Shown here one piece after another: positions 12,197 through 49,248 of a stretch of DNA of 64,000 nt. The notes below the pieces were generated by a model, which made no database searches, was not told the DNA's origin, and worked only from the letters and a program-made list of their open reading frames with translations. This stretch comes from Paraspadella gotoi. Lineage: Eukaryota; Animalia; Chaetognatha. The position numbers and the translations under genes are program-made. How positions within the stretch are numbered: position 1 is the stretch's first letter; each line of letters begins with the position of its first letter. The stretch spans positions 28,022,665 through 28,086,664 of the forward strand of contig CM119265.1 of NCBI GenBank assembly GCA_051294375.1, given 5' to 3'.

Positions 12197-12459
12197 AGAA
12201 AGAGAGAGAGCGATTCGGTGCGACCGATAATTGTGACACTCGCTTCAATTTTCGTCCAATTGTTCACGTGATGTGAAATCAAGACGAGCGTTCGATTTCA
12301 GTTTCAAATTCGTTTTGTGAAAAATTAAGGAAAAATCAGTTGACGAAATTTATTCGTCGGAATAATATTCTCTCTTCTCTTTTTGTCTACTCTATTCTTC
12401 AATCTTTCTTCTCTATTTTCTGCGATTCTCTCTCTCCTGTCTATTCTCCGTTTTCTTTC

Positions 12460-13055
12460 TGTAGAAGAGATTGGCGTGGTTTATTCTCTTCATTTACATC
12501 ATTTTCTTCATTTACGTTTTCTGCATTTACTTGGGAGATTTTTCTCCACTTTCTTTCTCCTTTAGATATATAGGCCTCAGTAGATACTCATAGACTTTCT
12601 ACCCGTCCACAAACGGCTTTTCACGAGAGAGACAGAGCCGTTACGTTACGTCAAGCACCTTTTGTCACCGTTTCAGAACAGTCATTTGATGGGTCCAGGA
12701 CCCACAGGGAGACCACATAGACTCGATGTCGAGATAGACTTGTGGACACACTTGTGGAGGCCGAGGCTCAGACTTTGACCCACTGCTACGGACTTATGGT
12801 CTCACCATCTAGAGACCACAGAGGGTCTTGGTGACCTTGTCGACCACGGCCCACGTCGCCCCATAGGCGTCGACGGGCTCTTCTTCCCAAGACGGCGGCC
12901 GGCCGTAGGAGACGTCCGCGAGCAGATGTCGGCAGGGCCGCGCCCACTTCCGGCGAAGACGACGAGGGACGCGTACGTCAGTCTCTTTACGTTGGAGCAA
13001 GACGGGGAGGAGGACGGAGAGACGACCCCCACGTAGGGCTAAGACAGCCTTTACA
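12460..13055 (+). repeat. 5' LTR of the BEL/Pao element
   Basis: Starts TGTAG, ends TTTACA. Near-identical to 23813-24406, differing mostly by 1-nt indels. TATA-like TATATA at 12567-12572. Confidence 0.95.
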
Positions 13056-13065
13056 GTGAAAAGCC
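13056..13065 (+). promoter_or_regulatory. Non-canonical primer-binding site GTGAAAAGCC (candidate self-priming site)
   Basis: Abuts the 5' LTR end, lacks TGG, and is the exact reverse complement of GGCTTTTCAC at 12615-12624 inside the LTR. Confidence 0.7.
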
Positions 13066-13221
13066 TAAACTGTCTCTCCGTGTTGGGTCTCTACTCAAGT
13101 ACGGTGAGTATGACAGTATCACAGTACCTTATTTGAAGACATGAATTTATAGACATCAGTAGCTTGTAGACTAACACTGTGTATATTAAAACCTTATTTA
13201 TCTTGTTTGCATATACGCGCG

Positions 13222-16200
13222 ATGGCATCCTCTCAGCCCGATGGCCCCCCGCAGGATGGGGTGGGTGGAACTAGTCCCGAGGAATTCGCCGACCAACTTG
13301 AATGCCTGCGACATACATTCCAAGGCCTGTTCAACAGGGCCCTCGAAACCGGGACTCAGGCAGATCGTACCTCCGCAAATAGCATGCGGGAGGCCCTGGG
13401 GGCTAAGAAAGAGGCAGCGATGCATCTCGCGGGCGAGTATAGACTTCGAAATAATCATCCGTTGTCATTAGCTATAGTCAGAGTAAGAGACTTCATGGAA
13501 GATAATCCTCAATTCCCTCTAACTTTCACGGGACTGGGAAACATGACAACCACAAATAACCCTGGATCCCGACCCGGATCCCGGGCCACTTCCCCATTTC
13601 TTCCTCTCCCCAACCCCACAAGTGGAACAGTGGGAAGAGGTGGGGGCCGTGGAAGCAGTGGGCGGGCAACGCCAACAGTGGGGGGGGCAGCGGCAAATCA
13701 AGAGGAAGAAGCTCCCATAGCTTCTCGTCTCAGGTCATCTGTGTCAGCCCCTCCGTTTCAGACTGCTTTCATGACCCCCCTCTTGAGCGAAGCAAATGGG
13801 CAATTGGAGAGAAATAGACCTACGGGCGAACAATTCACTGCTTTCAGGCCGATACGCCCTGATAATCTGTCTCAAAGAATTAACACGGCAACAACTACGG
13901 GATTGTGTGCAACCGTAGCCACTGCAACAGCGACATCAACAGTAGTCACCACAACGATTATTGATACAATACCGACAGCTTCGATAACATCAGCCTATCC
14001 CCCCACAAGCTCGACAGACGAAATTCGACGAGCAGTGGAAGGGGCGATGCAGCAGGTTGTGAATGAACAGGCGGCCAGAGTCAATCAAGCTGAGGAAGAA
14101 TATGAGAGAGAATTGGCAGCTCTTCGACAACGACATCAGCAACAATTAGAGGCTGCCGAACGACAAGCGGCTCGTCAGCGCCTCAGAGTGCGACATGAGT
14201 CTGAGGAGTTGAATCGCACACTCGATGCTCGGACACTCAACGACTACAACCCGACAATCCTGCCGGCGGTTTTTTCGGGGCATGTGCCAGTATCTACGGC
14301 ACCGCCCCCGATTACAGCTGGAGTTGGCGCGGGTGTCAATGCGCCTCGGTCGGGAAATCTCCTCGCAGATTTAGCGGCAGGATTGGCCGCCCGAACTCCA
14401 AGAGTAGTCCTTCCCACCGAAAACAGCCCGCCGGCAGCAGATATTACCTCATTGAGTGGACGATTATCAGCCATGGAGATTCACGCTCAGCGTCAAGCAG
14501 CAGCCCACGAAGCTGAGAGAGAACGGTGGAGGACCGATCGAGAGAATTGGCGGGCAGAAAGGGAGAGTTATGAGAGAAACTTTGAATCAAGGGTGGTGAG
14601 GATGGTGACCATGCTAACAGGTCAAGCAAGTGCAGGAAGCGCTCTTCCAGCACCTGCCCCTCCTCCGCCACCTCTACGTCATCCCCCCCCTCCAGGTCCG
14701 CTCTTGGGAGGTTTCACGTCTCGAACAGATGTGCCAGTTCACGAGAGATGTCCTCCACTAACAAGAGACCCAATATTTCAGATCCAACAAGATCAAATTG
14801 CGCAACTGACAGATCAACTCGGTCAACTTCAAAATCGTTTAGCTAATATTAGCATGGAGAGACACGGTGAGGGAGAAGCTCTGGAGGCGCACACGCCTCC
14901 ACCGACTAATCCCCCAGAATCCAGACAATTTGAGCGTTATTTACACTCTCAGTCTACGGAATCTACTATCCGTATGCTGAAGGACTTACGTCCTGAAGAA
15001 GTGTTCATGAGTGAAGATGCAAAGAACAAAGTAGTTTTTGAGATACACATGCGGCAATGGGAATCGGTAATGTCTCAACCTGGCGTCACCGATCAGATGC
15101 GCCACCAGGAGCTGCGACACTGGTTCGGAGGCTTAGCCAGACTGAAGCTTCAAAAATACTTCCATCGTACCGATTACGCCTCAGCCGTCGCAGAAGCAAT
15201 CTCCATGCTGCAACGTGAATTTGGCCGACCGGATGCCTCTCCCCACGAGATGCTCAAAGACTGCCTATCTGGGGGAAAGGCTACGGAAGCCACAGAGATT
15301 GATGAGACAATAACACGCCTTGAAAACATCATCGGCATTGCAGAGGCCAAAGGCCGGATGCGAGACCTCAACCGTGATACCGTTATCGCCGAGATTCTTG
15401 ACACTAAATTTCCACAATGGAAAGATAAATTTGCAGAGGGAAACTCGGAATCAGTCTTCAAAAACAACAGAAAACTGACGATACATGAATTTGTCGAATT
15501 TCTTAAGATTCGCCTTGTGGCTGTAAAATCTGTCTATTTCAAGAAAAAACGATCCACTTCAACCGCTGTAGCAGCGGTGGCTTCCTCCTTGAACCCACCA
15601 CCCCCGGAAATGAACGGTGGGGGCCCACCAGAAGCCACAGGAGAGAATAGGAATAATGAGTCCTTGGACTCCTTAGAGGGAACTGATCCCACACGTTCCG
15701 AACAAAGACGAAGGAAACGATCCAGAAGAAGAAAAAGCAAAGAAAGAATACCCGAAATACCGGCTACGGCTGCTCCGAGCGAAACAGGCTGCGCCTATGT
15801 GATGGCCCAACAACCCCTGTACCAGGCCCCTCAGCCACCACAGCAGCCGATTCATCAAACAACCACAGCCGTCCCATCCCAAACACCTCAAGCGCCAACG
15901 CTGAATCCCGGAGCACCGATGTACGCATCGACACCAAATCGGCCAGCGACACTGCATTGTCACTTTTGCGGTCAGGCTCATATGATTTGGGATTGTGCAG
16001 GATATCAAGCACTTGGCGTCCAGGCGAGAGCAGACCTGATCGCAGGTAGAAGATTGTGTTTTAAGTGTTTGGGCGGATCACATTTAGCTTCAAGATGTAG
16101 AATGGGTATACAATGTACAGTCTGTAGAGGCAATCACCATATCACTCTGCATGGCATGGCACCTGTGCGCAGACTGAACCCTTTGAATCAATCAGTTCAG

Positions 16201-16455
16201 TATCAGCCAGCCCAGAGTTACCCTCAAACGCTTAGTTATGCCACTCCTGTATTCGTTAATCCCTCTCCCCCCACCCTCGCTCCCTTCCCCACAACCCAAC
16301 CCCCGTACCAGGCACCCGGGATGGTGAGTGGAGTTACAGCATTGGCCAACAATGGAGCCCCAGATGCAAGTCAAATTACTCCGAAGATGACGGCGGCTAT
16401 GCCCTCGACGGTGACGACAACGCCCACCGTCCAAGCTGGAACTGCCTCTAGTTGA
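13222..16455 (+). CDS. gag: BEL/Pao Gag (~1077 aa)
   Basis: Long ORF from ATG 13222 with the triple knuckle CHFCGQAHMIWDC / CFKCLGGSHLASRC / CTVCRGNHHITLH near the C-terminus. The N-terminal half is low-complexity and coiled-coil-like. Confidence 0.92.
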   Translation: MASSQPDGPPQDGVGGTSPEEFADQLECLRHTFQGLFNRALETGTQADRTSANSMREALGAKKEAAMHLAGEYRLRNNHPLSLAIVRVRDFMEDNPQFPLTFTGLGNMTTTNNPGSRPGSRATSPFLPLPNPTSGTVGRGGGRGSSGRATPTVGGAAANQEEEAPIASRLRSSVSAPPFQTAFMTPLLSEANGQLERNRPTGEQFTAFRPIRPDNLSQRINTATTTGLCATVATATATSTVVTTTIIDTIPTASITSAYPPTSSTDEIRRAVEGAMQQVVNEQAARVNQAEEEYERELAALRQRHQQQLEAAERQAARQRLRVRHESEELNRTLDARTLNDYNPTILPAVFSGHVPVSTAPPPITAGVGAGVNAPRSGNLLADLAAGLAARTPRVVLPTENSPPAADITSLSGRLSAMEIHAQRQAAAHEAERERWRTDRENWRAERESYERNFESRVVRMVTMLTGQASAGSALPAPAPPPPPLRHPPPPGPLLGGFTSRTDVPVHERCPPLTRDPIFQIQQDQIAQLTDQLGQLQNRLANISMERHGEGEALEAHTPPPTNPPESRQFERYLHSQSTESTIRMLKDLRPEEVFMSEDAKNKVVFEIHMRQWESVMSQPGVTDQMRHQELRHWFGGLARLKLQKYFHRTDYASAVAEAISMLQREFGRPDASPHEMLKDCLSGGKATEATEIDETITRLENIIGIAEAKGRMRDLNRDTVIAEILDTKFPQWKDKFAEGNSESVFKNNRKLTIHEFVEFLKIRLVAVKSVYFKKKRSTSTAVAAVASSLNPPPPEMNGGGPPEATGENRNNESLDSLEGTDPTRSEQRRRKRSRRRKSKERIPEIPATAAPSETGCAYVMAQQPLYQAPQPPQQPIHQTTTAVPSQTPQAPTLNPGAPMYASTPNRPATLHCHFCGQAHMIWDCAGYQALGVQARADLIAGRRLCFKCLGGSHLASRCRMGIQCTVCRGNHHITLHGMAPVRRLNPLNQSVQYQPAQSYPQTLSYATPVFVNPSPPTLAPFPTTQPPYQAPGMVSGVTALANNGAPDASQITPKMTAAMPSTVTTTPTVQAGTASS

Positions 16456-19400
16456 CTAGCGGTTGCGTCCATCCCAGGCGAAGCGACATTTCGTCCAGTC
16501 GTGCCTGTCGTTGTCGAGATGGGTGGACGCAAAGCCACGACCTACGCCATGATCGACAGCGGTTGCAACCGCTGCGTCATCAAAGAAAAAATTGCAGATC
16601 AACTAGGGTTAGCTAGAATTGAAATTCCTATGAGAATTAGAACATTAGATAGTGATACTATAATCTCAAAAAACGTTGCAGACTTTAATTTCGAACCCCT
16701 CGACGGTAGCTTTTCCATCTCCGTTAAGAAAGCCATTGTGGGAAACCTGCTGACATCAGAAGACGACCTTCCCCCTTGCAACGCAGATGTGGCTGGAATA
16801 CCTCATCTAGAGGGGGTTTCGTTTCCTGATCTCCATGACAAGGAGGTCGGGATGCTCATCCCAGCGGGATACGCCTACACATGGACTGATGGAGAAGTAC
16901 GTCGAGGCCCTAAAGATCAACCTATAGCTATGGAAACAATGTTTGGTTGGACATTGATAGGCCCGCGTCGCGGGAAAGGCGGAGATGATATAAATTGTGC
17001 CCGTCTTACCGTCGAGGAAGACGAAAAAAGGATTCAAGAAGATATTCGCCTCCTTTTCCATCGAGATTTCGTCCCAGCTCCAAGCAGCAAGAAACTGCCA
17101 TCCGTGGAGGACGAGTTCGCGATGGAACAGTTGAAGGCAACAATAAGGTTTGACAATGAAGTTGGGCATTATTTTGTTGGCCTTCCCTGGGTTAGAGGCA
17201 GGGAGAAGGCAGCGAACGTTCTTAATGGTAGGGACTCGGGGACTATGGCATTAAACCGCCTCAGATCTCTCATGAGAAAACTTGAACGCCGTCCGGGGGA
17301 CAAAAAGAAGGTGGTCGACGAAATGAAGAAGTTTGTGGATGAAGGACATGCGCGTAAGGTTGAAGGAGACAACCTTCCCGAAAATACACCGTATTGGACT
17401 CTCCCGCTTCTTGTTGTCGTACGACCAGATAAAGACAAAGTACGCATCTGCCATGACGCCCGTGCGAGCGCCGGAGGCAAATGTTTAAACGACGAACTGT
17501 TGACTGGTCCAGATTATATGACCAATATGCTGGGAGTACTGCTTCGTTCCCGGCGTCATCAAGTCGCTCTCTCTGCGGACATCCGCGGTTTTTTCCATCA
17601 GGTGTTCGTAGATGAGAATGACGTACATGTATTTAGGTACTGGTGGTTTGAAGATGAAGCGTGCACTAAACTAGCACTGTTTGAACTCAGAGTGCACATA
17701 TTTGGGGCAAAGAGTTCCCCAGTGGTAGCAAACTCTGAAGACACATGCCGAGACGCTTCGGGGATTCATCCCGTTGGAGGTGGTGGAAGCCATCATTCAA
17801 CAGTTTTATGTTGATGACTTTTTTGGGTCTGCCCCAGACGAACAATCTGCGCGTGACCTCAAAGAAGGTTTGACGGAAGCTCTCCGACGAGGTGGCTTCG
17901 AGCTTACAAAGTGGAAATGTACGTCACCATCTGTGCTGGAAGACGAACCCAACAAGGCTACAAACTTAAAAAAGTCATTTACTGACGGCAACGATAATGA
18001 TACGAAAGACGAAAAACCTTACGACAAAGTGTTGGGAGTATGCTTCTCGTTCGGCAGTGACGAATTTTCATATAATGTAAATCTCGAAAAGGTCCAGAGA
18101 AGATGTCTCACAAAAAGACAGATCTTGTCGCTCACAGCAAGTCTGTACGATCCCTTGGGTATAGTATCGCCCTTTGTTCTCAAAGGGCGCAATTTATTTC
18201 AGCGCGCGAATGCAGCTTCAGTGGATTGGGACTCCCCTCTGCCAGACGAGATCATTAAGGAGTTCGACCTCTGGAGGGAGCAAATTCCCCAGCTAAAGGA
18301 ATTCCATATGAAGCGATGGATTGCGACGCCGGAGACTACAGATCATAAGGCTGAGTTGCATGTTTTTTCTGATGCTAGCCATGATGGATATGGTGTTGCT
18401 TGTTATCGACGTACGGTACCGCCTGAAGGAGGCGAATCTCATGTTGCTTTTTTGTTTTCAAGGTCGCGAGTTACACCCCTCGACTCATCAAAGGCATCTC
18501 ACCACAACTCCATCCCTCGACTGGAGCTGACGGCGGCGTGCCTGGCGGCGGAGATAAGATACATGATTCAAGAAGAATGCACCAACGATCGGTTTGAAAA
18601 AGTTGTTATGTGGACAGATTCAGAGACAGTCCTTAAACAGATATTTGACAAAAAGTCCAAATTTGCTGCCTTTTTTAAGAATCGCTTGTCTCGTATCAGG
18701 GAGCTAACCGACATCGGAGACTGGCGGTACATATCGACCCATGAAAATCCTGCAGACGATTGTAGTCGCGGCCTTCGTCTTGATGATCCAAAGTGGAAGA
18801 GATTTCACTTCGGCCCAGATTTCCTACGTCGTCCAGAGGAGGAGTGGCCGGAGCAAAAATTATCACCGTCATCTCTTTCATCCGAAGTTTTCGTGACCGA
18901 TGTCGACGACATCGAACCAGAGGAAAACCCAAAAAAGAAAAATACTAAGGATGAACATTGGGCATTACGCATTGCGCGGCAATGTTCCGACTCACGCCAA
19001 AAACTCTATTTGATTGCCGGAATGAAAAAATGTATTCTACACTGGATTGAATGGAGACGCGCGTTGAAGATAGATCCCAACGCACAACCAAAAAAACTAC
19101 AGTACACTACGCTCAAAGACACAAAAGACGCAGAAAAACTTTTGTGCCAAGCATTACAATTACGATATTTTGCGGACGAATACCGTCATCTCGAACAAAA
19201 AAACGTCCGATCCCCAGATGCGCGAGCGGAGCTAACGCTGACAAAATCTAAACTGCGGACGCTCAATCCCTTCCTGGATGAAGCGGGCATCATTCGAATC
19301 GGCGGAAGAATTGGAAAGGCACATTTGCCTTACGATACACGACACCCCATAGTACTACCAAAAAAAGATAGGATTGTGGATGACTACATCCGACATATCC

Positions 19401-20491
19401 ACAAAACTGAGGGTCACTCGGGTGTCGATCACGTTATGGCGCATATTCGACGCCGCTTCCACATACCCTCAGCCCGTCAAACCATAAAATCTGTTTTACG
19501 ACGATGTATAATTTGTCAAAAGAATTTCCGTGGTCCAGCGACGCAGAAGATGGGTGATCTTCCGGCCGAGAGACTCGATCGCGGCGCCCCCTTTGAGGCA
19601 ACCGGGGTCGATGTCTTTGGCCCCTTTAGAGTAGTTCACGGAGGACGAGGAAGCGCAAAAAGATGGGTCGTCATATTCACTTGCATGAAGATACGTGCCG
19701 TGCACCTGGAAGTTTTGCATGACCTCTCTTCCTCATCATTCATCAATGCCCTCATTCGTTTTAACTCGCGACGACCTGGTTCCAAAAAATTTTTCAGCGA
19801 CAATGGATCCAACTTTCGTGGAGCTGACGTCGAGTTGAGGGCGGCGGTGGAGAAATGGAAGAGCGAGCAGACGATCCGTTCAATGATCAATTACGGTATA
19901 GAATGGATTTTCTCCCCCCCTCTCGCCCCACACTGGGGCGGGGTGTGGGAGCGATTAATAAAATCTGCAAAAAAACATTTAACGGTTCTTTTGGGTAAAG
20001 AAAAATTAAGTGTAGAAATACTTGCAACGGCGCTTGCTTCCGTTGAAGGAATCATGAACCGACGCCCATTGACAAGAAGTCCAGATGACCCAAATAGTCT
20101 TGACGCGCTGACACCGATGGATTTACTTTTCCCGGGCGTACACGCACCAGCAAGGAGAATAATTGTTCCGCCAGAGTCGCTCGATGGCGACGCACTTTGT
20201 AGTTCTTGGAAGGAAGCGAGGCGGATCAGCGACGAATTCTGGGATAGGTGGACACAAGAGTACGTGGTTACTCTTCAAGAACGTCAAAAGTGGAACACCA
20301 CCCAAGAAAATCTTAAAGAAGGACAATTAGTACTAATGGTAGACGAACTCAAAGCTAGAGACCAGTGGAGACTGGCACGCGTGGTTGACGCCGGAAATGG
20401 AACGCATGTCAGACGCGTGACAGTGCGGACAGCAAGTGACAAAATCTTCGAGCGAGACCGCAATCGCCTGGTCCCTCTAGAATGTGACTAA
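16456..20491 (+). CDS. pol: BEL/Pao Pol (protease, RT, RNase H, integrase) with one frameshift near 17730
   Basis: Protease AMIDSG; RT LNDELLTGP, ADIRGFFHQV, FGAKSSP, FYVDD; RNase H LHVFSDAS, IPRLEL, WTDS, NPAD; integrase H..GH..CIIC, GVDVFGP, SDNGSNF, GGVWERL. ORFs 16501-17814 and 17774-20491 join via a frameshift at ~17729-17735. Confidence 0.95.
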
Positions 20492-20812
20492 GATTATTAT
20501 TAAGATTATTATTTATAAACATAACAAGTGACTGATGCTTACATCTGGTCACCAAGACGTTATTACGTTATTATGCTTACATAAAGACGTATAAAAATAA
20601 TCAAATTTTCTGTGTTCAGAAAACTTTTACTTTTATTTTGTCTTCCAATTTTTTTTTAGCATCATTTGTAAATTCTGTTCAAAAAAAAAAAATTTTTTTT
20701 TTACTTAGATTGATTTTCTTTCCTCTTTTTTACTTCTTTTATTTATCCAAAGCCAATTTATGTCTGTTTGCAGAGTTATTTCCTTTACGATAAATTAAAA
20801 ATTTCCTTGAAC

Positions 20813-22974
20813 ATGAGTCGACAAGCTCCATCAAACTACCGTCCTCATCAACTGAACCAGCCGGGCGCGACAACCACGATCGTTACGATTCACCCAATGG
20901 CAGTGGGTTCTGCGGCCGCTTGGGTCGCCTTTGGAAGACGGCGTTTCTTGGATCCAGTGTACGCTATCCTCGGCACTTTGTCGCCGCAGGAGTTTGAATC
21001 GCAGTTAGGGCCATGGGCGGACGCGGGAGATCTTACGGCGCATCTCCCACCAGAGGGCGCACTATCTGCGCTGTGGCGCCTAAGGAAAACGAGCGGCCGT
21101 TCCATCACCATAGCAGACAACGTTAGTTGGTACCCGGGATGCACAGTCTCAAGCGCCCCAGATTCCATTGTTGTAAATCTACAACAGTCTACCTTCGATA
21201 ACTTAGACGAAGCACGGCAGGCTTTGGCCTCAGCGATTTCTCAAGGACGCAATCCCTGCCCCGCCCGTCCTTCCTCCCTCCCTTCTCTTCCTCGTGCGCC
21301 AGTTCCTCCTCCCCCCTCCCGAGCAGCAGCCATCCTGCTGCAAGAGGAGGCAAGGGCGGAGGAGCGGGCGCAACCAGAGGTTGAGATAGTGGAACGCGTG
21401 GTCGAGGAGGCATCACCTCCTCGAGCACGAAGAAAGAAAAAAAGGAGCGAACGACGCCGTACGATTAACAACGAGAGAATGGTTATGCACGCGAGAATGA
21501 TGGAGGCAAAGAACGTAACCCCTGAAGCTGCTGCTGCTTCGGTTCCAGCCAAGTCTTCTCCAGCCGGAGTGCCCGCTGTAAGCAGCGGGCAATCGGCTCC
21601 TCTCCCGGTAATGGACGTAGATGAAGATCAGGAAAAGATGGACGAGAATGATCCCTTTGGTCTCGAACAAGTCAAGAACAGCTCGACGCTATCTGCAGAG
21701 CCAAATCCTGTTGGTTTTAGCAGCCTCTGCGAGATCTCATCGCTTGGGTCGTCGAAAACTTGGTTCGATCGAGTAATCGAAGAGGAAGAGGAAGATAGGA
21801 GAAATGAGAGAGCCAAGCGAGCCGCACGTCAAAACGCAGAGATAGAACAAGATTTGGCGGCCGGCATCTTGGGACGGGTGGCGATGCATTCGCCTCAAAA
21901 TACCTCTACACCTGTCCACAATATTACAACTCCTACAGAACCAGGACAAAGGAGGTTTCTAATGAAATCAAAAGAAATTAATTTTTTTATTACATTTATT
22001 ACGTTATGTTTAATCTCTTTTACTTTATCTTTTCCCTTGTTTTCTCTTTTTCTCTCTCTTCTTCTGTCCTCTTTTTCTTTTTTTTTTCTCCTCCCCCCCC
22101 TTGTGTTCCCCATATACCCAGGTGCGACGTTTTCGATCCAAATGACTCCAACCCGATCATCGATCTGGAGTCCCTGCCAGAGAAAATTTCCGAACGCAGA
22201 AAGAGGGATTTCGGTTCAAAATCCAGCATCGAATCTTCGTCCGAAACAATTAGGGCCGGGAAAACGGAGGAGGAAGAGGAGGGAAAGAACGATAATCATC
22301 CGGACCACCAGACGTGGGGCTTACCTCGGGAGGAGGCGAATGAGGCACGCCGCCAATACCGTCAAGCTCAAGATCAACTCATGTCTGACGGCCAGATGTC
22401 GGTGGAGAGGTCTCAAAGATGGCGTGAATATAAAGCATGGGACGATCGTGGTGGCACCTTCGTTCGACCAGCTCGCCCACCAAAGAAGAAACGTACAATA
22501 ACTTTAACATCCGCGACCAGACCGAGGGGATGCCCCTCTCTCAATCCCCGTAACTTCGAAATCGACCCTAATCCTCATGGCTTTCGTTGCCAAGACGTCA
22601 GAAAGGAATATCGCGAAACTGCCATCACGTTCATTGAGAAACCTTCGGGAGAGACGACGGCAATCCCTTCAAGATCACTTTTCACTACGACGATCAAATC
22701 TTCCACTTCAGTGACCCCGACGACATCTGTCTCAATTCTACCTACAGTTACCACACCAATAAACGCAACAAGGACCGACGAAACATGCGACGAAATCAGC
22801 TTTCCGGATCCTTCCTCTATTTCTTCCACGGATGAGTCATTTGCCTCGGCCTACGACATCCCCGAGGCTGAGGCGAATTCCCCTTCCATGCCCGAGCTGA
22901 CTCTCGCAGAGGAACGATCCATCCTTGGTGAAGATGAAATCAAAATCACAATGGACGACAACGACGATCTCTAA
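20813..22974 (+). CDS. ORF3 of the BEL element; predicted spliced 664-aa protein of unknown function (exons 20813-21954 and 22122-22974)
   Basis: Two GC-rich open frames are separated by an AT/pyrimidine-rich GT...AG segment (21955-22121). Removing it joins them in frame (...PGQR-R-CDVFDP...). Basic NLS-like motifs RARRKKKRSERRR and PPKKKR. Confidence 0.7.
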
Positions 22975-23800
22975 GGTGACGATGAATTCCCGCATCTCAG
23001 ACCCGCTGGGCTCAGCGGGCCAAACGCGACGCAAGCCTCGCCAGCGTCGACGTCTTGATCTACTGCTTTCAGCGCGATCGACTCGGCGCGATGATCTCCA
23101 AAACCGGAACTGTTTTAAGGAAACGAACTTGAAATCTGGACTATTATCAAATTTATTCATGTATTTATTCATTAACTTCAAAAGACGGTGAATTTTATTT
23201 AAATTTTAAAATGGCGTTAACCTTTAAAAATCATGTTCGTACATATATTTTTTTTTCTTTTTCTATTGAACCACCAAGTTACTCTTTACGCGTTTTCGAA
23301 TTATGTACGTGAATCATGGAATCAAGATTGATTTTTCTTTCTTTAATCAAGTTGGTAAAGCAACGTTTATATATTCTGTTTATTTACTCACGTAGTGGTC
23401 ACACACATCTATGTCTTATGCTTTCATAATGTTTTATAGTAGAAAGTTGACGCATTTTTTAGGACATTTATTCATTAGCGATGACGTTAACGTTGGGATA
23501 CATTTTCTAATCATATTAATTTTGTCACTATTTCTTGAAAGCAAGATAGATCTACCGTTTGTAGCCGGGTTTTATAAACACTAAGAATAAGAACTAAAAT
23601 ATTTTCGATTCTTCCAATTTTTTTCTTCATTTTATCATTTCCTCATTTTTTTCTTTCTTTTTTTTATTATTTCCCTCCACCCTGACTCTTCTCTTCTTTT
23701 TTCCTTATTTCTGCCTTTTTTCCTTCTTTTTCCCGTCCCGACATCCCCCCCCCAGCTCGGAGCGGTGAGCGTGTTTGCTCCAGCCCTCTGAAGGAGTGCT

Positions 23801-23812
23801 GGAGGGTGGGGG
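23801..23812 (+). promoter_or_regulatory. Polypurine tract
   Basis: GGAGGGTGGGGG immediately 5' of the TG of the 3' LTR. Confidence 0.85.
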
Positions 23813-24406
23813 TGTAGAGAGTATTGGCGTGGTTTATTCTCTTCATTTACATCATTTTCTTCATTTACCGTTTTCTGCATTTACTTGGGAGATTTTTCTC
23901 CACTTTCTTTCTCCTTTAGATATATTAGGCCCAGTAGATACTCATAGACTTTCTACCCGTCCACAAACGGCTTTTCACGAGAGAGACAGAGCCGTTACGT
24001 TACGTCAAGCACCTTTTGTCACCGTTTCAGAACAGTCATTTGATGGTCAGGACCCACAGGGAGACCACATGACTCGATGTCGAGATAGACTTGTGGACAC
24101 ACTTGTGGAGGCCGAGGCTCAGACTCTGACCCACTGCTACGGACTTATGGTCTCACCACCTGGAGACCACAGAGGGTCTTGGTGACCTTGTCGACCACGG
24201 CCCACGTCGCCCCATTAGGCGTCGACGGGCTCTTCTTCCCAAGACGGCGGCCGGCCGTAGGAGACGTCCGCGAGCAGATGTCGGCAGGGCCGCGCCCACT
24301 TCCGGCGAAGACGACGAGGGACGCGTACGTCAGTCTCTTTACGTTGGAGAAGACGGGGAGGAGGACGGAGGAGCCGACCCCACGTAGGGCTAAGACAGCC
24401 TTTACA
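23813..24406 (+). repeat. 3' LTR of the BEL/Pao element
   Basis: TGTAG...TTTACA, direct repeat of 12460-13055. Confidence 0.95.
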
Positions 24407-24914
24407 CCTTTCTTCCTCTATTTTTATTTCTCATTCACTATTCCGAGTCTCTTCTTCTCTTATCTCTATTTTCTCTTTCCTATACCAGAATCTACGGCTA
24501 CCTCTCTATTCCACTTTCTTCAAACTCGAAAACAAAAAGATGCAAATTTTGAAAACTTGAAGAGGAAAACAAACAAAAGAAAATGACTAAAGCGATGACG
24601 ATGACAAAAAGGATGATGAAAATAATGACGATGACAGTGACGACGACGACGACAGCGACGACGGTGATAGCGATGACGATGACAGAGACGACGATGACAG
24701 CGACGACGGTGATAGCGATGACGATGACAGCGACGACGATGACAGAGACGACGATGATAGCGATGACGATGACAGGAATGTGGAGGAAACACGAAATATC
24801 ACTGTTTTAAAAACGATGGGAAACTTAATGACATAAACGACAAAGATGATGACAATGATAATTCGAAAGACGGCGAGAAAAAAATATCGCAATGATGGCA
24901 ATAATGAAGTCTGA

Positions 24915-26190: not shown

Positions 26191-29100
26191 ACACGAAATA
26201 TCTGTGGTGAACGGTCACCCACGCGCGTCTGAAGCTGCACTAGGTTCGTTCAAATGATAAAATTGTTTCCAAGAAAAAATCTTTTATTTGTTCAATTTAA
26301 AATCACGCTTAATAAAATAATCAAAGCATATAGATATTCAGTAGAATTATCTATATGCATAACAAACAAAAGCAGTAACAAATAATACTACACAATAAGA
26401 ATGACCATAAATCAATAAACATTAACAATTAGAATAAGTATTTAAACTTGTGTGATAGATAGTAAATGTGTAGAATATCAGTTTAACAAGAAGAACTAAG
26501 ATCTAGACTGACATACTACTCCAGAATGAGAACCATTGAAACACTACTAGAGTGCTCTAGTAAAATATAAGGTTGTTATGTTCTCTTGTTTTAACATAAC
26601 GAGATAACATCTAGAATAATTAATGTAATTGGAATATCTATATATAATATATCGTTGTGGGGGTGAAGCACTAAGTCTCTGTTAGTGAATGAACAGTTTC
26701 CCGGATCAAATCCGGGGACAACTCTTTTTATTTTGATTTCTAGTAAAATCGTTTATTATCAATTTGATATATTAGTTAAGTTAAGGTTTTTTATATATCA
26801 ATTGGCGATTCGCCCAAACTCCCCTCAGCATTCGAAAGGTCGAAGAATCCTGGGTCGAATCCCAGCATATCTCATCAAACACCCGGGAAATGTTCATTCT
26901 CGGACAAAGACCCTTTCGACTCTTCAATCCTTCATTCGAAAAAGGCGCCAAAAATCCCAGGACCGTGCAATTCGAAGAAGCCGAACCCCTCTTTCTCACG
27001 AACGACAACGGCTACTTTTGGGAAAAAGTCGGCCGGCGCAACAGTATGTGGCCGTCAGAAATGCTTCTACGTCGTATTATGGCCGCAGGTTTAAGATGTC
27101 AATATCTACTCTTTTAATATTAATAATACATGCCTAATGATTGATGACAGTAGTAACTTGTTATGTGTTATAGTGCGACAGAAAGCGCTTCATATATAAG
27201 CAAGTCCCTGAGCTTCGGCATCAGGTTGTAACACTGAGATACAGCCGGATAACGCCCCGTCCCGTCACTGGCGTAGGCGGCCACCGGCGGCCAGAGAACC
27301 CAGACCTATTGGGTTGGGAGGCGACGATGACTTGCACCTCACGCACCTCAATGGCAGCTGATGAACGGTGTTGATTTTAGTCCAACACCATACTAACGAC
27401 CCAAATAAAGTATATCATTCAATTCAAAAATAAGTCTATCTTGCCCTGACTTGGACAGGCTAGCTTTCGGTCATGTATCATTTATTAATAGTTTCACTCA
27501 TATCAACGTTCTTCCTCCCCTATGAACCTATATGCGTCCAGGCGTTCTTGGCCTTGGTGCTCAAACATTCCTTTCCTAAGATCACGGTGACTGGTTTTAA
27601 ACCACCGGTCAGCTAGCCACAAGCCAGTCCATAGTTGCTCAAATCGATCGCAACTAACCAGAGAAAACTTTCAGACCATGGGCATACACAAGTGTTAAGG
27701 CTGAACCACCCACCGTCCGCCCGATGGGCCTGCTGATGACCCTTTTTCCTTTTGGTCAACTTCAACACGACGGAGTAACGCAGTGACCCGTTTCATACCC
27801 GAGTCGCGTTACGCGTGCTGATGTTCAATTCTTCCGTAGTACGCCCCCGTTCATTGCCGTTGAGCAGTAACGGCCATGGAGAAAAAATCGCCCGATTCGT
27901 CTACGTGACTTTCATGTTGTGGATTGAAATATCGAAGATCCCGAATTGGATGTTGAGAAAGAAGCGAAAGGGCCAAGGTGAGGTTCTTGCGGGCGGAAGG
28001 AAAAGCTCAGGGTAAGTATTTTATTAAAGATAAACTTTAATCATTTAATTATTAGTTTTTAGATTAAACATTAGAAATTAATTTGCCATGGATGCAAGGA
28101 AAACATTATTAAGCCGAAAAACTTATACTTTTTATCTTCTTCTTGAAAATAAAACAAAATTCGTTGTCTGTCCAACGATAACAAATATTTTCATTAATTT
28201 TAATTCAAAAGTCTGAAACGAATACGATTAAGCACGGAAGTGAGCAATGTCTACCAAATTAAACACACTTGTCTAGAATTCATGTAAACTTAATTATGTA
28301 TATATATCCTATAATTTAAACTAATTTCTTTTTTTTAAATCAAGAGGCTGCGCCGCGATTGAACGCAACGATCGATTCGCTGGTCTCCCTGCCTTTCAAT
28401 CATCCACTTCATTTTCGTTCCGACGGAGTTTCTCGGGACTTCAATTCTCATTCGTCTCTCCATCTCTCTAAAAAACACGCTTGCATGCGCTCACTGCTAA
28501 AGGTAATTCGGAGCCATAAGAGTTCCTCCGGGCCTACACCTAAAGTGGCCCCGGTCACACTAAGCTAACGTAGCTTCCACTTTTACGGGGCAGTCCCTCA
28601 TAAGGGAGGCGGATCAGTTTCGACGTGGAAGAAAGTCTGGCGAGTAGGGGAAAATTTTGAGTATGAAAAAAAGAATCCGTTTATAATATTTAGTATGTTA
28701 TAGATTCTGCCAAATTATGATAGAATCTAGTCGAATTTGCAAAGTTTTCAACAGATTCTTACAACATTTGCATACGTATTAGACACAATCGAATTCTATA
28801 TTTAGTCATATTTAGGCATTGACACTATTTTATGAGATGATATGAATTTTCTTAAATGAGTTGATAATTCTTAAACTTAGTTTCTTAATTTTATATTTAA
28901 TTAAAAGATTTTATGCGAAATAATTGAATATAATGTTAGAATATAATTTAGGACTCTATGTTAAGATATTTCTACTCTCTCACACCTTTCTCCCCTGCCT
29001 CTCGTCTCTCTCTCTCTCTCTCTCTCTTCCTTTTCAGAGAAGCTCCTCTGGGAGTAGACTTTCGACGCTGCCACCCCACGGTTTCTGCGCGTCACTCGGC

Positions 29101-31300
29101 AGCGACTGATTGGCGCCCTCATCGGGTTCCAACGACCAATTTCGACTTTCACACCAACGACTACGCTTGGCGCCACTTCCTGCCGTCAACAAATACTCCC
29201 ACCCTCAGCTCGGTGCGACGAAGGCAAAGCTTTTCGGCGCCTTCGAACTGTGGGAAATGGTTTCGAGAACGGTCTCTCGCCATGCACAGACGGGCGCGAC
29301 GATAGGTATTTCTCTTTCGGTCTCTCGCCTTGCCTTGGCGCGCCACATCGGCGACGCCAACAGCTGGTACTTAGGGTGGAGTGGAGGATGAATAGATCAA
29401 CATAGAGCAGGAATTGATAAATCATTATTACTAAAATACTTTTTTTAATTAAAATTATAATTTTTTTATCTTATAAATTAGAGAAAACACAAGTCTGTTT
29501 GTCTTGATAACAACCGATTTATTTACATTGGACATGTTTCGCGCATCTTGCTTTAAGTCTTCATCACACGCTGATACCTTACATTCTCGCACAACCAATC
29601 TTTAAAATATAATGCTTACAAAATTTTTTACAATATTATCGCAGTGAAGTCAACGTCACAAAAGATGAAATCAAATATAACCAAAACCAGAATCATAATA
29701 GGGATCAGAGGACTCGAATAAAACGACCAGATTTTGGAATCCATTGAATGATCGCGAGCCGATGAGAATTGCTATTCAACCTCTCAGTGTCCTATATTAC
29801 GATCTCTCGTCGCCGCCTCACATCTTTCTATAATCAAATAGACCTAGCTTTTTTAGTTCAGTAAAATTGATCTGGACTCCGGCGTTGTCTCATCCCGTCA
29901 CCTGTTACTTTCTCTTGTCTTTCTTGTTCAATGTCGGTGTACAGTATTTTTGGGCAAGTGACTAACCATTTAAGTCTATTTTTTTTTTATATTTTAAGTT
30001 TTTCTTAAAAATCCATATTTCTTCTTAATTACATCCAAATCAAAAAGATATTCTAATTATTTTTTTAAAAATAATTAATAGTATAATGTCTCATTCCTTC
30101 ACTCCGCCCTACTTCTCCAGAGTCACGCGACGAGCACGACTTACCTATCGACCTTCTCAGTGGGCGAATGAATTCTCGCCGGCGACTTGGACGATTCCGT
30201 CTCCTCTTAGTCATGTCCCGATCACGGACCTCGATTCGGCGTACAGTTCTGCACCACGCCCCTCGGACGGCTACGAGCAGCGGCCACCCTTTCTTGTGTG
30301 TGTGCTTTCTCTCTTATTTCTCACTACACGCTGGCGATGCTGTTTGGCCACTGCCACCGATCCTCCACCTAGCCCTTTCTCCTTCCTCCATCGGTCTCCA
30401 GAGACGATTTTCCCAACTGGTCGCCAAACGCTGTGGATCGCATGCTCAACGCTGACCTAACGCAACGGCCTTGACGACCCAGTCACGAAACGTTTGCTCC
30501 ACTTCGCTGCACATCCAGAACCTACACTCGTACCTTGGACCCGAGGGCCTCAGTTCCCGCCTCCGCCTCGATCTCTCATGACGAGATTCCGGCAAACCGG
30601 ACGCTGCGAAGACGCAGCAGGGTGCCGGTTATCCAGTTCTCGGGTGCCGTGACGCCGACTCCGTTGAAGCCGAATTCGAGCAGAAGCGATTAGGAGTGGC
30701 CAATGCTGTTGGTAAGTCCATCATATGTGAATGAGTATGGGCTCGAGACATAAAGATGAGGGGACTATGACGGGGCAATGTTTGTCTCTCTCTCTCTCGC
30801 TCTCTCTCTCCTCTCTCTTTATTAGTGATGCGCGAGCCCTTCGGTATGGTTAATACTTATTTGTACTGTTATCGTTTAATATCAATTTCTCATGCCTCCA
30901 ACACGGCCTCAGGCTGTCCAACTGCTTTCGCGCGACATTAAAATTTAGAAAGAGTGAGCGGCATGAACGCGGCCAGTCGATACGACTCGATGGCGAAGCG
31001 GATAAAAAGTTCGGTGGGCGGCGCCTCACTTCACGATTGTCCCTCGTCTTGAGCCAGAGCTCAGCCGTGGTTCACGGGGGTCTGGCCCGCCCGGGCCTCA
31101 AAGAGAAGGTTGAGTATACTCCTTCCACGCACCGCCAGGACCTGAACAATCTTTACACTATTCTCCAGCCTCGAGAACTATACGCTAATCAAGATGCTGT
31201 GGCAACGATCCTGTACAACTCGCATCAAGGCATTTGTAATCTTAAGCCAAAAGCGTTTATAGGAGATGATCAGTCATCTGTGCGTTTGCACACATGATAA
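26191..31300 (+). pseudogene. DUF229-family gene, copy 1 (indel-riddled, first recognisable exon interrupted by the solo LTR)
   Basis: Colinear with 45726-53220 but with abundant single-base insertions. May be an error-prone read rather than a real pseudogene. Confidence 0.6.
26203..26867. mobile_element. Solo-LTR-like insertion (665 bp) with 4-bp TSD TATC
   Basis: TG...CA ends, TATC on both sides (26199-26202 and 26868-26871). Absent from the duplicate locus at ~45735. Confidence 0.75.
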
Positions 31301-40770: not shown

Positions 40771-41723
40771 CTGAAGGAAGGAAATTAATTAATTAATTAT
40801 TTATATTAATTATTTAATAAATAATAAATTTAAAAAAAAATAAATATTAAATAAATAAATTAATAAATTTAAAAAATAAAAGAATTAAAAATAAATAAAT
40901 ACAAAAATAAATGAATTGTTAGGCTTGGAACCCCGAAATCGGCCCCATCGGGATCCGGCCATCAGGGCGAGTAGCCAACTATTGGATGAAGAACTTTATC
41001 TCTAACTTGTAAATATCAAACCCTTAATTAAATCAAATATAACAAAAGACATATACCCGAGATTCGATCTCGGGACCTTGGGAAGCGGCAATGACATGTT
41101 GAGTGGCATTGCGCACACAGGCAGATACAATATAGATATTCCAATAACCTAATTATCCTTAAGTAGCATTTACTTATATGTTAAACAAATGAACAAACAC
41201 AATTAACACAGATAGATCTGCACTAGCTATCTCAACATATGTTTCACTATTGTTAACTAATTTCTCTTATTTCTCTTTTCTCTCTTCAATGAGAAAAGAA
41301 TTGTCAAATGAACTACAAATAAGTTTATGATGTTTATTACTGTTTATGCTTTATTTTGCTATTGTTGTTGCATATAGATGTTATAGCTGCTTGCTGACAA
41401 AAGCAACTGATATTCTATATGCTTTGATTATTTATTAAGGTCTGCTTTTATAATTAACCAAGCAAGTTGGTAAGAGACAATTTATTAATAAACAATAAAC
41501 TAACGGCGCCACGAGAACTACGCCAACGTCAACGTCTCCCATTTCCGGTCAACGTCTTTCCTCTTACTGATGCCCGTGGCGACGTTCCGCTCAATACCGG
41601 TTTGATCCGCACATTGGTGAAGTCCCGACTTCGACGTCGCGCCTTTCCATCTCTGAAAGGCGCTCCAACCTTCCGACACAACCACGCCTTCAAAAGACGC
41701 CGTCAATCTTCGGCGTCACCTTC

Positions 41724-42845
41724 TTGATGTCGCTTAACGTTCCAGGAGTCACGACGCGCGGCCAATCCCGGGCGACCCATCCTCCACAACCCCGCCTGCC
41801 GTCTCCACGCCTGGGGGAGGAAGAGGTCCCGGTGTCTCAAGTTGGCCGTCAATCAACGCCGACCTCAGCTGAACCGACCCAACTCTTTCAGTTTCCAGCT
41901 CCGGCCCGTTTTTTCAACAATCATCCGGCGATGGCCGAAGCCCCGCCGACCCAAACGGAGATGGATTCCCTCCGCTCCGCCCTCGACGCTGCTCTCGCCG
42001 CCGCCGAGGCCGCTCGTAACGCCTTAGCACGCAGCGAAAAACCCAAAAAACCCGAACTGCCGTCCTTCGATAAGAACAATATCGAAATTTGGATCAGAAG
42101 AGTCGAGTCAGCATATACAAGATCCAGAATCACGACTCCCAAAGACAAGTTCGCTTTTCTCGAGTCCAAGATAGCCGTCGACGTAAATCCAAAGATCAAC
42201 GCCTTTTTATTCGGTGAACCAACTGAAGAAAACTGGGCGGATTTCATTGATTACTTGAAGACCGAGTATGGTTTGACCAAACGTCGACAGGCCGAGATAC
42301 TACTGGATGCTAAAATAGGACGAGACGGCCTCAAGCCATCCCAACAGCTCGCCAGGATGGTCGAGCGTTCTCCAACAGTGACCGTGGATGACATTCGAAA
42401 GGAGCTGATTATCCGCAGCCTCCCCTTGGACATTCGTGCCAACTTAATCGATCGCGCCGATGAATTAACGGCGTCTCAATTTTCCGAGCTGGCCGACAAA
42501 CATTTTGACGCCGAGGGAAGGCCACTCTGCAAGTCCACGGCGCCCATAGTCAATGTCGTTGATGCGGAACTCGACGATTCTTTAACTGACGAAGAAAATC
42601 AAACGGCGATCAACGCCGTCAATCGACGCCGCGACCAAAACCGCTCGGCGCCGCCGAGGCATTCCAACTTCTCAAAGCAGGGCCAACCAAAGGCGCCGAC
42701 ACCGCCAGCCTCCGGATTAAAGCAAGTTTGCTTTTTTCATTTAAAGTATGGCGATGCTGCTCGACGTTGCCAACGCGGATGCGCCCGCTACGGAGAAAAA
42801 CGCGCCGATAATGCGGGAAACGCCTCGGCGAGCCGGCGCCGGTGA
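41724..42845 (+). CDS. gag: Gypsy Gag with CHCC zinc motif
   Basis: KPELPSFDKNNIEIWIRRVE N-terminal signature and CFFHLKYGDAARRCQRGC (C-X2-H-X9-C-X3-C), as in CsRn1-clade Gag. Confidence 0.85.
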   Translation: MMSLNVPGVTTRGQSRATHPPQPRLPSPRLGEEEVPVSQVGRQSTPTSAEPTQLFQFPAPARFFNNHPAMAEAPPTQTEMDSLRSALDAALAAAEAARNALARSEKPKKPELPSFDKNNIEIWIRRVESAYTRSRITTPKDKFAFLESKIAVDVNPKINAFLFGEPTEENWADFIDYLKTEYGLTKRRQAEILLDAKIGRDGLKPSQQLARMVERSPTVTVDDIRKELIIRSLPLDIRANLIDRADELTASQFSELADKHFDAEGRPLCKSTAPIVNVVDAELDDSLTDEENQTAINAVNRRRDQNRSAPPRHSNFSKQGQPKAPTPPASGLKQVCFFHLKYGDAARRCQRGCARYGEKRADNAGNASASRRR

Positions 42846-43014
42846 ACGCCGTGCCTCGCCAAAACGGAAATTCGCCGATGAAATCGAATTTGCTTCACGT
42901 CGTCGACGCCAGCGACGGCCGCGCATGGCTGGTCGACGGCGGCGCCCTGCTTTCTCTTGTTCCTCCGACGCCGCAACAGCGCGCCGCTGGACCAGCAGGC
43001 CCCCAATTACAGGC
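42815..43014 (+). CDS. pol: Start of Gypsy pol (protease) in the -1 frame
   Basis: G GGA AAC slippery site at 42815-42821. The -1 frame reads LLHVVDASDGRAWLVDGGALLSLVP. Truncated by the gap. Confidence 0.75.
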
Positions 43015-43189
43015 NNNNNNNNNNNNNNNNNNNNNNNNNNNNNNNNNNNNNNNNNNNNNNNNNNNNNNNNNNNNNNNNNNNNNNNNNNNNNNNNNNNNNN
43101 NNNNNNNNNNNNNNTTTGTCTACTCTATTCTTCAATCTTTCTTCTCTATTTTCTCGATTCTCTCTCCTGTCTATTCTCCGTTTTCTTTC

Positions 43190-43912: not shown

Positions 43913-44419
43913 CCTTTCTTCTCTTATTTTTATTTCTCATTCACTATTCCGAGTCTTCTTTCTTCTCTATTCTCTATTTTCTCTTTCCTATTCCAGAATC
44001 TACGGCTACCTCTCTATTCCACTTTCTTCAAACTCGAAAACAAAAAGATGCAAATTTTGAAAACTTGAAGAGGAAAACAAACAAAAGAAAATGACTAAAG
44101 CGATGACGATGACAAAAAGGATGATGAAAATAATGACATGACAGTGACGACGACCGACAGCGACGACGGTGATAGCGATGACGATGACAGAGACGACGAT
44201 GACAGCGACGACGGTGATAGCGATGACGATGACAGCGACGACGATACAGAGACGACGATGATAGCGATGACGATGACAGGAATGTGGAGGAAACACGAAA
44301 TATCACTGTTTTAAAAACGATGGGAAACTTAATGACATAAACGACAAAGATGATGACAATGATAATTCGAAAGACGGCGAGAAAAAAATATCGCAATGAT
44401 GGCAATAATGAAGTTCTGA

Positions 44420-44453
<34 letters not shown>

Positions 44454-45073: not shown

Positions 45074-45143
<70 letters not shown>

Positions 45144-49207: not shown

Positions 49208-49248
<41 letters not shown>

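What the first reader, a model, noticed from the sequence alone, without database searches (positions are those of the whole stretch)
20813..22974. Third ORF in the env position is a non-env, probably nuclear protein and contains its own intron
Seen: a 167-nt GT-AG segment (21955-22121, long pyrimidine tract, weak GTTTCT donor) whose removal gives an uninterrupted 664-aa ORF. The spliced product shows no evident signal peptide or transmembrane anchor, since the hydrophobic stretch lies in the intron. It has a plausible folded N-terminal ~150 aa, two NLS-like basic clusters, charged helices and a Ser/Thr/acidic tail. Inference: an uncharacterised accessory protein (anti-silencing, RNA export or targeting). 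An intron retained in a retroelement implies regulated splicing in which the packaged genomic RNA stays unspliced.
Basis: partly seen in the sequence, partly recalled or inferred. Interest (0 to 1): 0.78.

Follow-up and report, generated by a model that had tools for sequence, protein, structure and literature searches.

The report
Spliced orphan gene in Bel/Pao retrotransposon
A 12-kb Bel/Pao retrotransposon carries, where retroviruses keep their envelope gene, a reading frame split in two by a 167-base stretch that is likely an intron; the predicted protein has no detected relatives and no envelope features, and would most likely act in the nucleus to help export the element's unspliced RNA, as the worm protein CERV does.

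Summary
A Bel/Pao element (LTRs 12460-13055 and 23813-24406) has a third gene after pol. Its two parts (20813-21954, 22122-22974) lie in different frames, both carry the element's coding signal, and they sum to 664 codons. The 167-nt stretch between them scores as non-coding, starts at AG|GT, ends at CAG|G and holds a 145-nt AG-free pyrimidine tract. An intron is the best reading (about 0.7), but the donor is weak, no junction read was available and the assembly has many indels. The element also has signals for two further introns (13104-20773; 22976 or 23188-23755) and a strong donor at the end of gag that is in frame with ORF3. Neither exon has a signal peptide, transmembrane segment or env-family match. 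No relative was found; folding failed, so the 'folded N-terminus' is unproven. Function is inferred: most likely a Rev/CERV-like nuclear regulator of unspliced RNA (about 0.35). Non-env ORFs in the env position, and retained introns, are known (Cer1 CERV, plant extra ORFs, Copia gag introns); I found no such spliced gene described for Bel/Pao. New variant of a known kind.

The parts
12460..13055 (+). 5' LTR (TG...CA)
   Evidence: 97.2% match to the 3' LTR; 4 substitutions and 12 single-base indels in 601 columns
13104..13109 (+). predicted major splice donor ACG|GTGAGT, upstream of the gag ATG
   Evidence: one of 2 of 534 GT sites on the element's + strand with 6 of 7 consensus matches; use not shown
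13222..16455 (+). gag, 1077 aa, three Cys-His boxes, ends in TGA followed by CTAG
16324..16329 (+). second strong donor ATG|GTGAGT, 43 codons before the gag stop, phase 0, in frame with the exon starting at 20774
   Evidence: use not shown
16456..20491 (+). pol (protease, RT, RNase H region, integrase) in two frames, broken once between about 17730 and 17814
   Evidence: PF13650 E 5e-4, PF05380 E 8e-41, PF17921 E 1e-11, PF18701 E 3e-22; ORFs
20755..20773 (+). predicted acceptor TTTGCAG| of the ORF3 message; ATG 20813 is the first ATG after it
20813..21954 (+). ORF3 exon 1 (380 codons plus 2 nt): putative small domain about 45-143, Pro-rich linker, charged helices, Arg-rich cluster 204-216
   Evidence: codon score and hydropathy, motifs, low-confidence model
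21955..22121 (+). 167-nt likely intron: AG|GTTTCT donor (weak), 145-nt AG-free pyrimidine tract, CCCAG|G acceptor
22122..22974 (+). ORF3 exon 2 (283 codons): acidic/basic blocks, PPKKKR, Ser/Thr-rich and acidic tail
22976..23755 (+). possible 3' UTR intron: donor AAG|GTGACG one base after the ORF3 stop (or ACG|GTGAAT at 23188), 162-nt AG-free tract ending CCCCAG|
   Evidence: longest AG-free run on the element's + strand; use not shown
23801..23812 (+). polypurine tract before the 3' LTR
   Evidence: sequence
23813..24406 (+). 3' LTR

Best explanation
[quoted passage not shown] Proposed working: the LTR transcript is either kept whole (template for Gag, Pol and packaging) or spliced from the donor at 13104 to the acceptor at 20773, then across 21955-22121, and possibly across a 3' UTR intron ending at 23755. 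The fully spliced message would be exported by the normal route and make ORF3 first; ORF3, through its Arg-rich helix and basic clusters, would bind the element's RNA in the nucleus and license export of the intron-containing form, as Rev and CERV do. A weak donor at the inner intron would make ORF3 output sensitive to splicing conditions. Shown: element anatomy, two coding frames, non-coding character and GT-AG ends of the segment, absence of env features. Inferred: every splice, nuclear location, RNA binding, export role.
For: Frame switch with coding signal on both sides; segment scores as the element's own non-coding DNA, below 56 of 56 exon windows; G+C drop begins at the GT; first AG after a 145-nt AG-free tract is CAG|G and in frame, where only 5% of AGs in ORF3 coding DNA are YAG|G and 4% of GTs follow AG (post hoc); no structure after the slippery T-runs; upstream strong donor and acceptor typical of subgenomic messages; no signal peptide or transmembrane segment, 3 and 4 Cys, no Pfam env family; Arg-rich 17-mer with 10 basic residues inside a predicted helix of pLDDT about 87; precedent of Cer1 CERV, an env-position, non-env, spliced, nuclear export factor (PMC10309623).
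Against: No junction read or contig was available. Donor matches 3 of 7 consensus positions, as do or better 184 of 534 GT sites in the element. One of the four change-point models puts the start 21-29 nt inside the GT. AG-free pyrimidine runs of 90 nt or more are common in this genome: 52 in the window, both strands. The assembly has 7-10 indels per kb in duplicated non-coding DNA. No leucine-rich export signal by the strict pattern in either exon. Gag has an equally basic 17-mer (11 residues), so the cluster is not distinctive. No conserved RNA structure found (z -1.1 to -1.4). No homologue, so no conservation test.
Confidence: 0.35

Rival explanations
1. The intron is real but the protein has another job: an anti-silencing or chromatin factor, or an integration/targeting helper.
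For: Same splice evidence; basic clusters and acidic blocks fit any nuclear adaptor; the model's N-terminal helices plus hairpin drew MarR/winged-helix chains as top but non-significant rows (E 0.4 and worse, TM under 0.25).
Against: No domain, homologue or fold supports it; fold rows come from a model of mean pLDDT 51.
Confidence: 0.22
2. ORF3 is mainly made as a Gag-ORF3 fusion, spliced from the donor at 16324 near the end of gag to the acceptor at 20773, giving a second capsid-associated or regulatory Gag isoform (the CERV layout, where gag exons join an env-position exon).
For: The donor is one of the 2 best of 534; it is phase 0 and the exon from 20774 is phase 0 and open into ORF3; CERV is built this way (PMC10309623).
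Against: Frame match has a 1-in-3 chance; ORF3 has its own first ATG 39 nt after the acceptor; the donor could instead pair with the 3' UTR acceptor to give a short gag message, as in Copia elements (PMC5580714, abstract).
Confidence: 0.13
3. There is no intron: the frame break is a sequencing indel (or a mutation in this copy) in the T-runs, and the true gene is one frame with a central hydrophobic, possibly membrane-spanning stretch.
For: Indels outnumber substitutions 12 to 4 between the LTRs and 20 to 7 between duplicated flanks; at those rates an indel in 140 nt has probability 0.6-0.75; both frames are open over 21982-22121; pol also has one break.
Against: At the gag/pol rate (1 break in 7.3 kb) the probability is 0.02; the segment scores -32 even on the best single-shift path; its hydropathy (2.1-2.4) is matched by the element's non-coding T-rich tracts read in any frame (1.7-2.2); GT-AG ends would be coincidence.
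Confidence: 0.1
4. The segment is a low-complexity insertion that broke the gene in this copy and is not spliced.
For: Such tracts are common in the host DNA (52 in the window); a 4-nt repeat AGGT flanks it.
Against: LTRs differ by only 4 substitutions (young copy); a sister tract of like length and layout sits in the 3' UTR; AGGT at both ends is also the ordinary splice consensus.
Confidence: 0.08
5. The functional product is the unspliced 562-aa form with a hydrophobic segment and basic tail (env-like or FAST-like membrane protein), or a -1 ribosomal frameshift joins the frames.
For: Exon-1 frame is open to 22499 with a KD19 peak of 2.27; T TTT TTT heptamers in frame at 21982, 22078, 22081.
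Against: The open frame is unremarkable (P 0.12 across the segment, 0.18 after it) and its tail scores as non-coding, -0.07 per codon; no signal peptide; no fold downstream of 21982 (0 kcal/mol) and only a distant hairpin after 22081 (z -1.4).
Confidence: 0.07

Closest known systems
CERV of Cer1 (C. elegans Ty3/gypsy element; PMC10309623: abstract, Introduction, sections 6 and 15, passages)
   Same: Env-position ORF with no env likeness and no outside homologues; product of a spliced multi-exon mRNA; basic NLS; similar size (517 aa versus 664 aa); genomic RNA retains usable splice sites.
   Different: Cer1 is Ty3/gypsy, this is Bel/Pao; CERV's N-terminal half comes from gag exons and its env-position part is one exon, here the env-position gene has its own ATG and an intron inside; CERV has three predicted folded domains and an essential Cys loop, ORF3 is mostly low-complexity with 7 Cys; sequence homology was not tested.
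Cer19-ORF2 (C38D9.2, F15D4.5; PMC7084138, section 7 read)
   Same: Extra expressed gene of unknown function between the LTRs of an animal LTR element (Cer19 as Bel/Pao is recalled, not read).
   Different: Carries zf-CCHC knuckles; ORF3 has no Pfam match; intron content not stated in what I read.
Plant extra ORFs downstream of pol (SIRE, Athila, Ogre, Retand; PMC6317226, passages)
   Same: Heterogeneous, mostly orphan 3' forward ORFs in the env position with unknown function.
   Different: Plant Copia/Gypsy lineages; here a metazoan Bel/Pao element and an internal intron.
Bel/Pao env-like genes (roo F-type, mosquito Chuviridae-like gB; PMC13524379 passages, PMC8742986 whole text)
   Same: Third gene in the same position of the same family.
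   Different: Those are Cys-bridged membrane glycoproteins; ORF3 lacks signal peptide, transmembrane segment and family match.
HIV-1 Rev and other two-exon retroviral regulators (Rev mechanism as summarised in PMC10309623 section 15; two-exon structure recalled)
   Same: Made from a multiply spliced message; Arg-rich helix.
   Different: Rev is small and has a leucine-rich export signal and a structured response element; neither was found here.
Ty1/Copia gag intron (EVD; PMC5580714, abstract)
   Same: Intron kept in the genomic RNA of an LTR element and spliced in a subgenomic message.
   Different: There it tunes Gag to Pol ratio; here it lies in a third gene.

Membership tests
Belpaoviridae (Bel/Pao) | LTRs of 0.2-1.2 kb flanking gag-pol | tested here: met
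   596/594-nt LTRs, TG...CA, 97% alike
Belpaoviridae (Bel/Pao) | Pol order protease-RT-RNase H-integrase with Pao-specific domains | tested here: met
   PF13650, PF00078 (weak, E 0.07), PF05380, PF17921, PF18701 in that order; 672 of 4940 candidates at E<=1e-100, the 120 listed all with PF05380, 29-42% identity
Belpaoviridae (Bel/Pao) | Gag with triple Cys-His box (feature recalled) | tested here: met
   three boxes at gag residues 913, 946, 965
Belpaoviridae (Bel/Pao) | primer-binding site for tRNA-Arg or tRNA-Gly; genome 4.2-10 kb (PMC8742986) | tested here: inconclusive
   sequence after the 5' LTR does not begin with TGG; no host tRNA set to compare; element is 11.9 kb, above the stated range
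env / fusogen | N-terminal signal peptide | tested here: not met
   best 12-residue hydropathy in the first 46 residues is 1.67, starting at residue 29; crude test, no SignalP
env / fusogen | transmembrane anchor | tested here: not met
   KD19 maximum 1.44 and 0.70 in the two exons; 2.27 only in the unspliced frame, matched by non-coding tracts
env / fusogen | match to a known fusogen family or Cys-rich ectodomain | tested here: not met
   0 Pfam families for exon 1 and the 562-aa frame, one non-env row at E 0.7 for exon 2; 3 and 4 Cys; no fold match at E<=0.001 in PDB or BFVD, on a poor model
spliceosomal (U2) intron | GT donor, branch point, pyrimidine tract, YAG acceptor, frame-restoring | tested here: met
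   all present; donor weak (3 of 7); 7 YTNAY-like sites 94-159 nt from the AG
spliceosomal (U2) intron | removed from RNA | tested here: inconclusive
   the only listed run has no contig that crosses either junction
Rev/CERV-like RNA export factor | made from spliced message, nuclear localisation signal | tested here: inconclusive
   splice signals and basic clusters present; expression and location not testable
Rev/CERV-like RNA export factor | leucine-rich nuclear export signal | tested here: not met
   0 matches to the strict four-hydrophobe pattern in either exon
Rev/CERV-like RNA export factor | required for export of unspliced RNA | not testable with these tools
   needs knockdown and RNA FISH
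CERV family | sequence or fold homology (H, G, M domains, Cys loop) | not tested
   CERV sequence was not fetched; no CERV-like hit; no Cys-rich loop in ORF3
SLIP1-binding motif (PMC3763545, passages) | Trp, small residue at +1, Val at +4, acid at +5, Glu at +8 | tested here: inconclusive
   exon 1 residue 317 has Trp, Val+4 and Glu+8 but Phe+1 and Ile+5: 3 of 5

The most novel reading that the evidence does not exclude
This Bel/Pao lineage is a 'complex' retrotransposon: it runs a three-intron splicing programme to make an orphan nuclear regulator (and possibly a Gag-ORF3 fusion) that switches its own RNA from spliced to exported-unspliced, an independent invention of the Rev principle in a third family of Ortervirales, possibly by docking on the host SLIP1/CTIF export-translation adaptors through a Trp-x3-Val acidic motif.
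Probability: 0.2. Interest if true: 0.8.

Novelty: new variant of a known kind. Interest (0 to 1): 0.5.

Why it matters
How LTR retrotransposons export intron-containing genomic RNA, and what their many non-env ORFs in the env position do, is largely open; CERV is the one worked-out animal case I found. A Bel/Pao element with a spliced orphan third gene would extend accessory-gene regulation to a family described as gag-pol with occasional env, gives exact junctions to test with any host RNA-seq, and warns that ORF-based annotation would call this gene broken or env-like.

Tried and rejected
No RNA holder listed; the one run X1 (kind guessed, share 0.12) gave two exact 163-168-nt pieces in exon 1 and exon 2 at depth 2 and no contig bridging the segment: no verdict on splicing or expression. 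Short partial matches of other X1 contigs (36-44 nt at 20450, 21750, 21851, 23226) looked like a related family, but estimated E-values are 0.008-13 depending on scoring: hint only. Homologue searches were blank: residues 1-190 among 209-665-aa proteins (0 of 2685 candidates), residues 185-380 among 666-2000-aa proteins (0 of 1833), ESM Atlas for residues 1-170 and exon 2, viral contigs (0 of 59 pattern hits), metagenome contigs (0 of 513 for exon 1, 0 of 83 for integrase), PDB sequences (best E 1.0), NCBIfam. Exon 2 was not searched in the protein database, and the full HMMER search and the wide structural search could not be run (queues full), so 'orphan' is provisional. Single-sequence folds were unusable (pLDDT 51 and 39); winged-helix rows are noise-level. 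The three T-rich tracts are not detectably homologous (158, 23 and 98 of 500 block shuffles reach the score). No Rfam family (2 rows far under threshold); no unusual RNA fold after the ORF3 stop. No genome is held, so copy comparison and dN/dS were impossible. Earlier scan notes: nothing in 3 look-ups. Two older Cer-element papers were not held; they may describe spliced extra exons in Bel-type Cer elements (recalled), which would lower novelty. No supplements were read; those of PMC3118150 and PMC7084138 may bear on extra ORFs in Bel/Pao elements.

Full report
Setting. The finding lies in an 11.9-kb LTR retrotransposon. Its LTRs are at 12460-13055 and 23813-24406 and differ by 4 substitutions and 12 single-base indels in 601 columns. 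Gag (13222-16455) has three Cys-His boxes. Pol follows in the order protease, RT, Pao domain PF05380, integrase, PF18701 and is broken once near 17730-17814. The nearest listed polyproteins are 29-42% identical over the best stretch, and those with names come from marine invertebrates, fishes and one arachnid, so no close relative is on hand. The host is an animal with microsatellite-rich DNA; a DUF229 gene piece lies at 52240-52875 (E 4e-45). No genome is held.

The observation. GT at 21955 and AG at 22120-22121 bound 167 nt; the parts on either side are 1142 and 853 nt, 665 codons with the stop. Both parts are coding: each is far longer than composition allows by chance (2e-7, 4e-6), and a codon model trained on this element's gag/pol prefers the exon-1 frame before the segment and the exon-2 frame after it (bin by bin). 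Exon 2 has no ATG of its own near its start apart from one inside the segment, so something must join the frames.

What joins them. Four readings were weighed. (a) Intron. The segment scores -32 to -39 on a coding-versus-noncoding model (noncoding trained on the element's own intergenic and 3' UTR DNA), below 56 of 56 exon windows. The G+C drop starts at 21956 and G depletion ends at 22120; the three-state model brackets both sites, though the exact pair is 3.6 log units under the optimum, and the four-base model starts later, at 21976-21984. The acceptor is the first AG after a 145-nt AG-free run, the second longest on the element's + strand, and reads CAG|G; only 5% of AGs in ORF3 coding DNA look like that (post hoc). 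The donor is weak: 3 of 7 consensus positions, equalled or beaten by 184 of 534 GT sites. (b) Sequencing indel. Duplicated non-coding DNA in this assembly differs by 7-10 indels per kb per copy, gag/pol by one break in 7.3 kb; the chance of an indel in 140 nt is 0.6-0.75 or 0.02 accordingly. This can explain a frame break but not a non-coding composition with splice-like ends. (c) Unspliced membrane form. The exon-1 frame is open to 22499 (562 aa) with a hydrophobic peak of 2.27, but such openness is common in shuffles (0.12 and 0.18), the tail scores as non-coding, and non-coding T-rich tracts of the element give 1.7-2.2 in any frame. (d) Ribosomal frameshift. T-heptamers are in frame but nothing folds close behind them. 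I put the intron at about 0.7. RNA evidence is missing: the only listed run has exact pieces in both exons at depth 2 and none across a junction.

A wider splice layout. Only 2 of 534 GT sites on the element's + strand match 6 of 7 consensus positions: 13104, upstream of the gag ATG, and 16324, 43 codons before the gag stop. An acceptor TTTGCAG ends at 20773, and ATG 20813 is the first ATG after it (one search used a start one base early, corrected). This is the layout of a subgenomic message. The gag donor is in phase with that exon, so a Gag-ORF3 fusion is possible (1-in-3 chance by itself). In the 3' UTR a 162-nt AG-free tract ends in CCCCAG at 23755, with candidate donors one base after the ORF3 stop (22976) and at 23188; the first would place the junction too close to the stop to trigger nonsense-mediated decay (50-nt rule, recalled). 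Against over-reading: 52 such pyrimidine runs occur in the window on both strands, and none of these splices is shown.

The protein. Neither exon has a signal peptide or transmembrane segment, Cys are few (3 and 4), and 71-77% of residues are small, polar, charged or Pro. No family, homologue or fold was found; the most sensitive search could not be run and exon 2 was searched less fully. Single-sequence models give confident helices only at about 190-230 and 317-350; residues 30-155 alone reach pLDDT 39, so the folded N-terminus is neither shown nor excluded. Basic clusters RRKKKR and KKKR are present; no strict leucine-rich export signal is. A Trp-x3-Val acidic stretch at residue 317 meets 3 of 5 positions of the SLIP1-binding motif (PMC3763545, passages); 0 like matches in 2388 residues of gag/pol, but this is a lead only.

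Mechanism. An element with strong splice sites must still export unspliced RNA. The worked-out animal case is Cer1, whose env-position, non-env ORF is part of a spliced message encoding the nuclear protein CERV, needed for export of genomic RNA (PMC10309623: abstract, sections 4, 6, 15 and passages). ORF3 matches it in position, spliced origin, basic signals and orphan status, and has an Arg-rich helix. I therefore favour a Rev/CERV-like role, at 0.35 overall; anti-silencing or targeting 0.22; Gag fusion as main product 0.13; non-intron readings 0.25 together. All functional steps are inferred.

Comparison with print. [quoted passage not shown] A survey of Bel/Pao in 62 genomes has 0 occurrences of 'intron' or 'splic' in its main text (PMC3118150, passages). 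Known Bel/Pao third genes are fusogen-like (PMC13524379, passages). An extra non-env gene is described in Cer19 (PMC7084138, section 7), orphan 3' ORFs are common in plant elements (PMC6317226, passages), and retained introns are known in Copia elements (PMC5580714, abstract). Searches (listings of 10-20 papers each) showed no Bel/Pao third gene with an internal intron; two older Cer papers were not held, and subscription journals are not covered.

Verdict. The feature is real at the sequence level and likely an intron in a non-env accessory gene. Each ingredient has a precedent in other LTR families; the combination in Bel/Pao, with an orphan protein and up to three introns, appears undescribed. 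New variant of a known kind; interest 0.5, held down by one error-prone copy, no RNA and no homologue.

Noticed in passing
window 16453-16459: Gag ends in an in-frame TGA followed by CTAG, the known readthrough-prone stop context (PMC9841425, passages), and the protease frame continues in phase; a long hairpin can form 8 nt downstream (z -1.3). Gag-Pol is likely made by stop-codon readthrough.
   Followed up: partly
window 16324 and 23755: The strong donor near the gag end could also pair with the 3' UTR acceptor, giving a gag-only message with an 11-codon tail, like Copia subgenomic RNA.
   Followed up: partly
window 13056-13075: The sequence after the 5' LTR does not start with the TGG expected of a tRNA 3'-end primer site; the primer is unexplained.
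   Followed up: no
window 12926-13036: An ATG in the 5' LTR opens a 36-codon upstream frame that stops before the donor at 13104; the LTR copies differ by indels here.
   Followed up: partly
window 43115-45405: A second copy of the same insertion site (same flanks, LTR ends around an N gap) about 19.5 kb downstream: a solo LTR allele, a haplotype or an assembly duplicate.
   Followed up: partly
window 41571-43014: Gag-like ORF (424 aa, weak DUF7041, E 0.003) followed by a protease-like start in another frame, cut by an N gap; likely a Ty3/gypsy element fragment.
   Followed up: no
window 28950-29400, 49100-49600, 51100-53000, 55700-57750: Several frameshifted pieces of what looks like one host gene in direct and inverted copies; the piece at 52240-52875 matches DUF229.
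   Followed up: partly
window 12455-12459 and 24407-24412: Target-site duplication is imperfect by one base (CTTTC before, CCTTTC after), in line with indel noise.
   Followed up: partly
window 22980-23100: A G+C-rich 120-nt block right after the ORF3 stop, partly matched by another contig of run X1 with a loose end at 23056; folds no better than shuffles (z -1.1). Possible cis element.
   Followed up: partly
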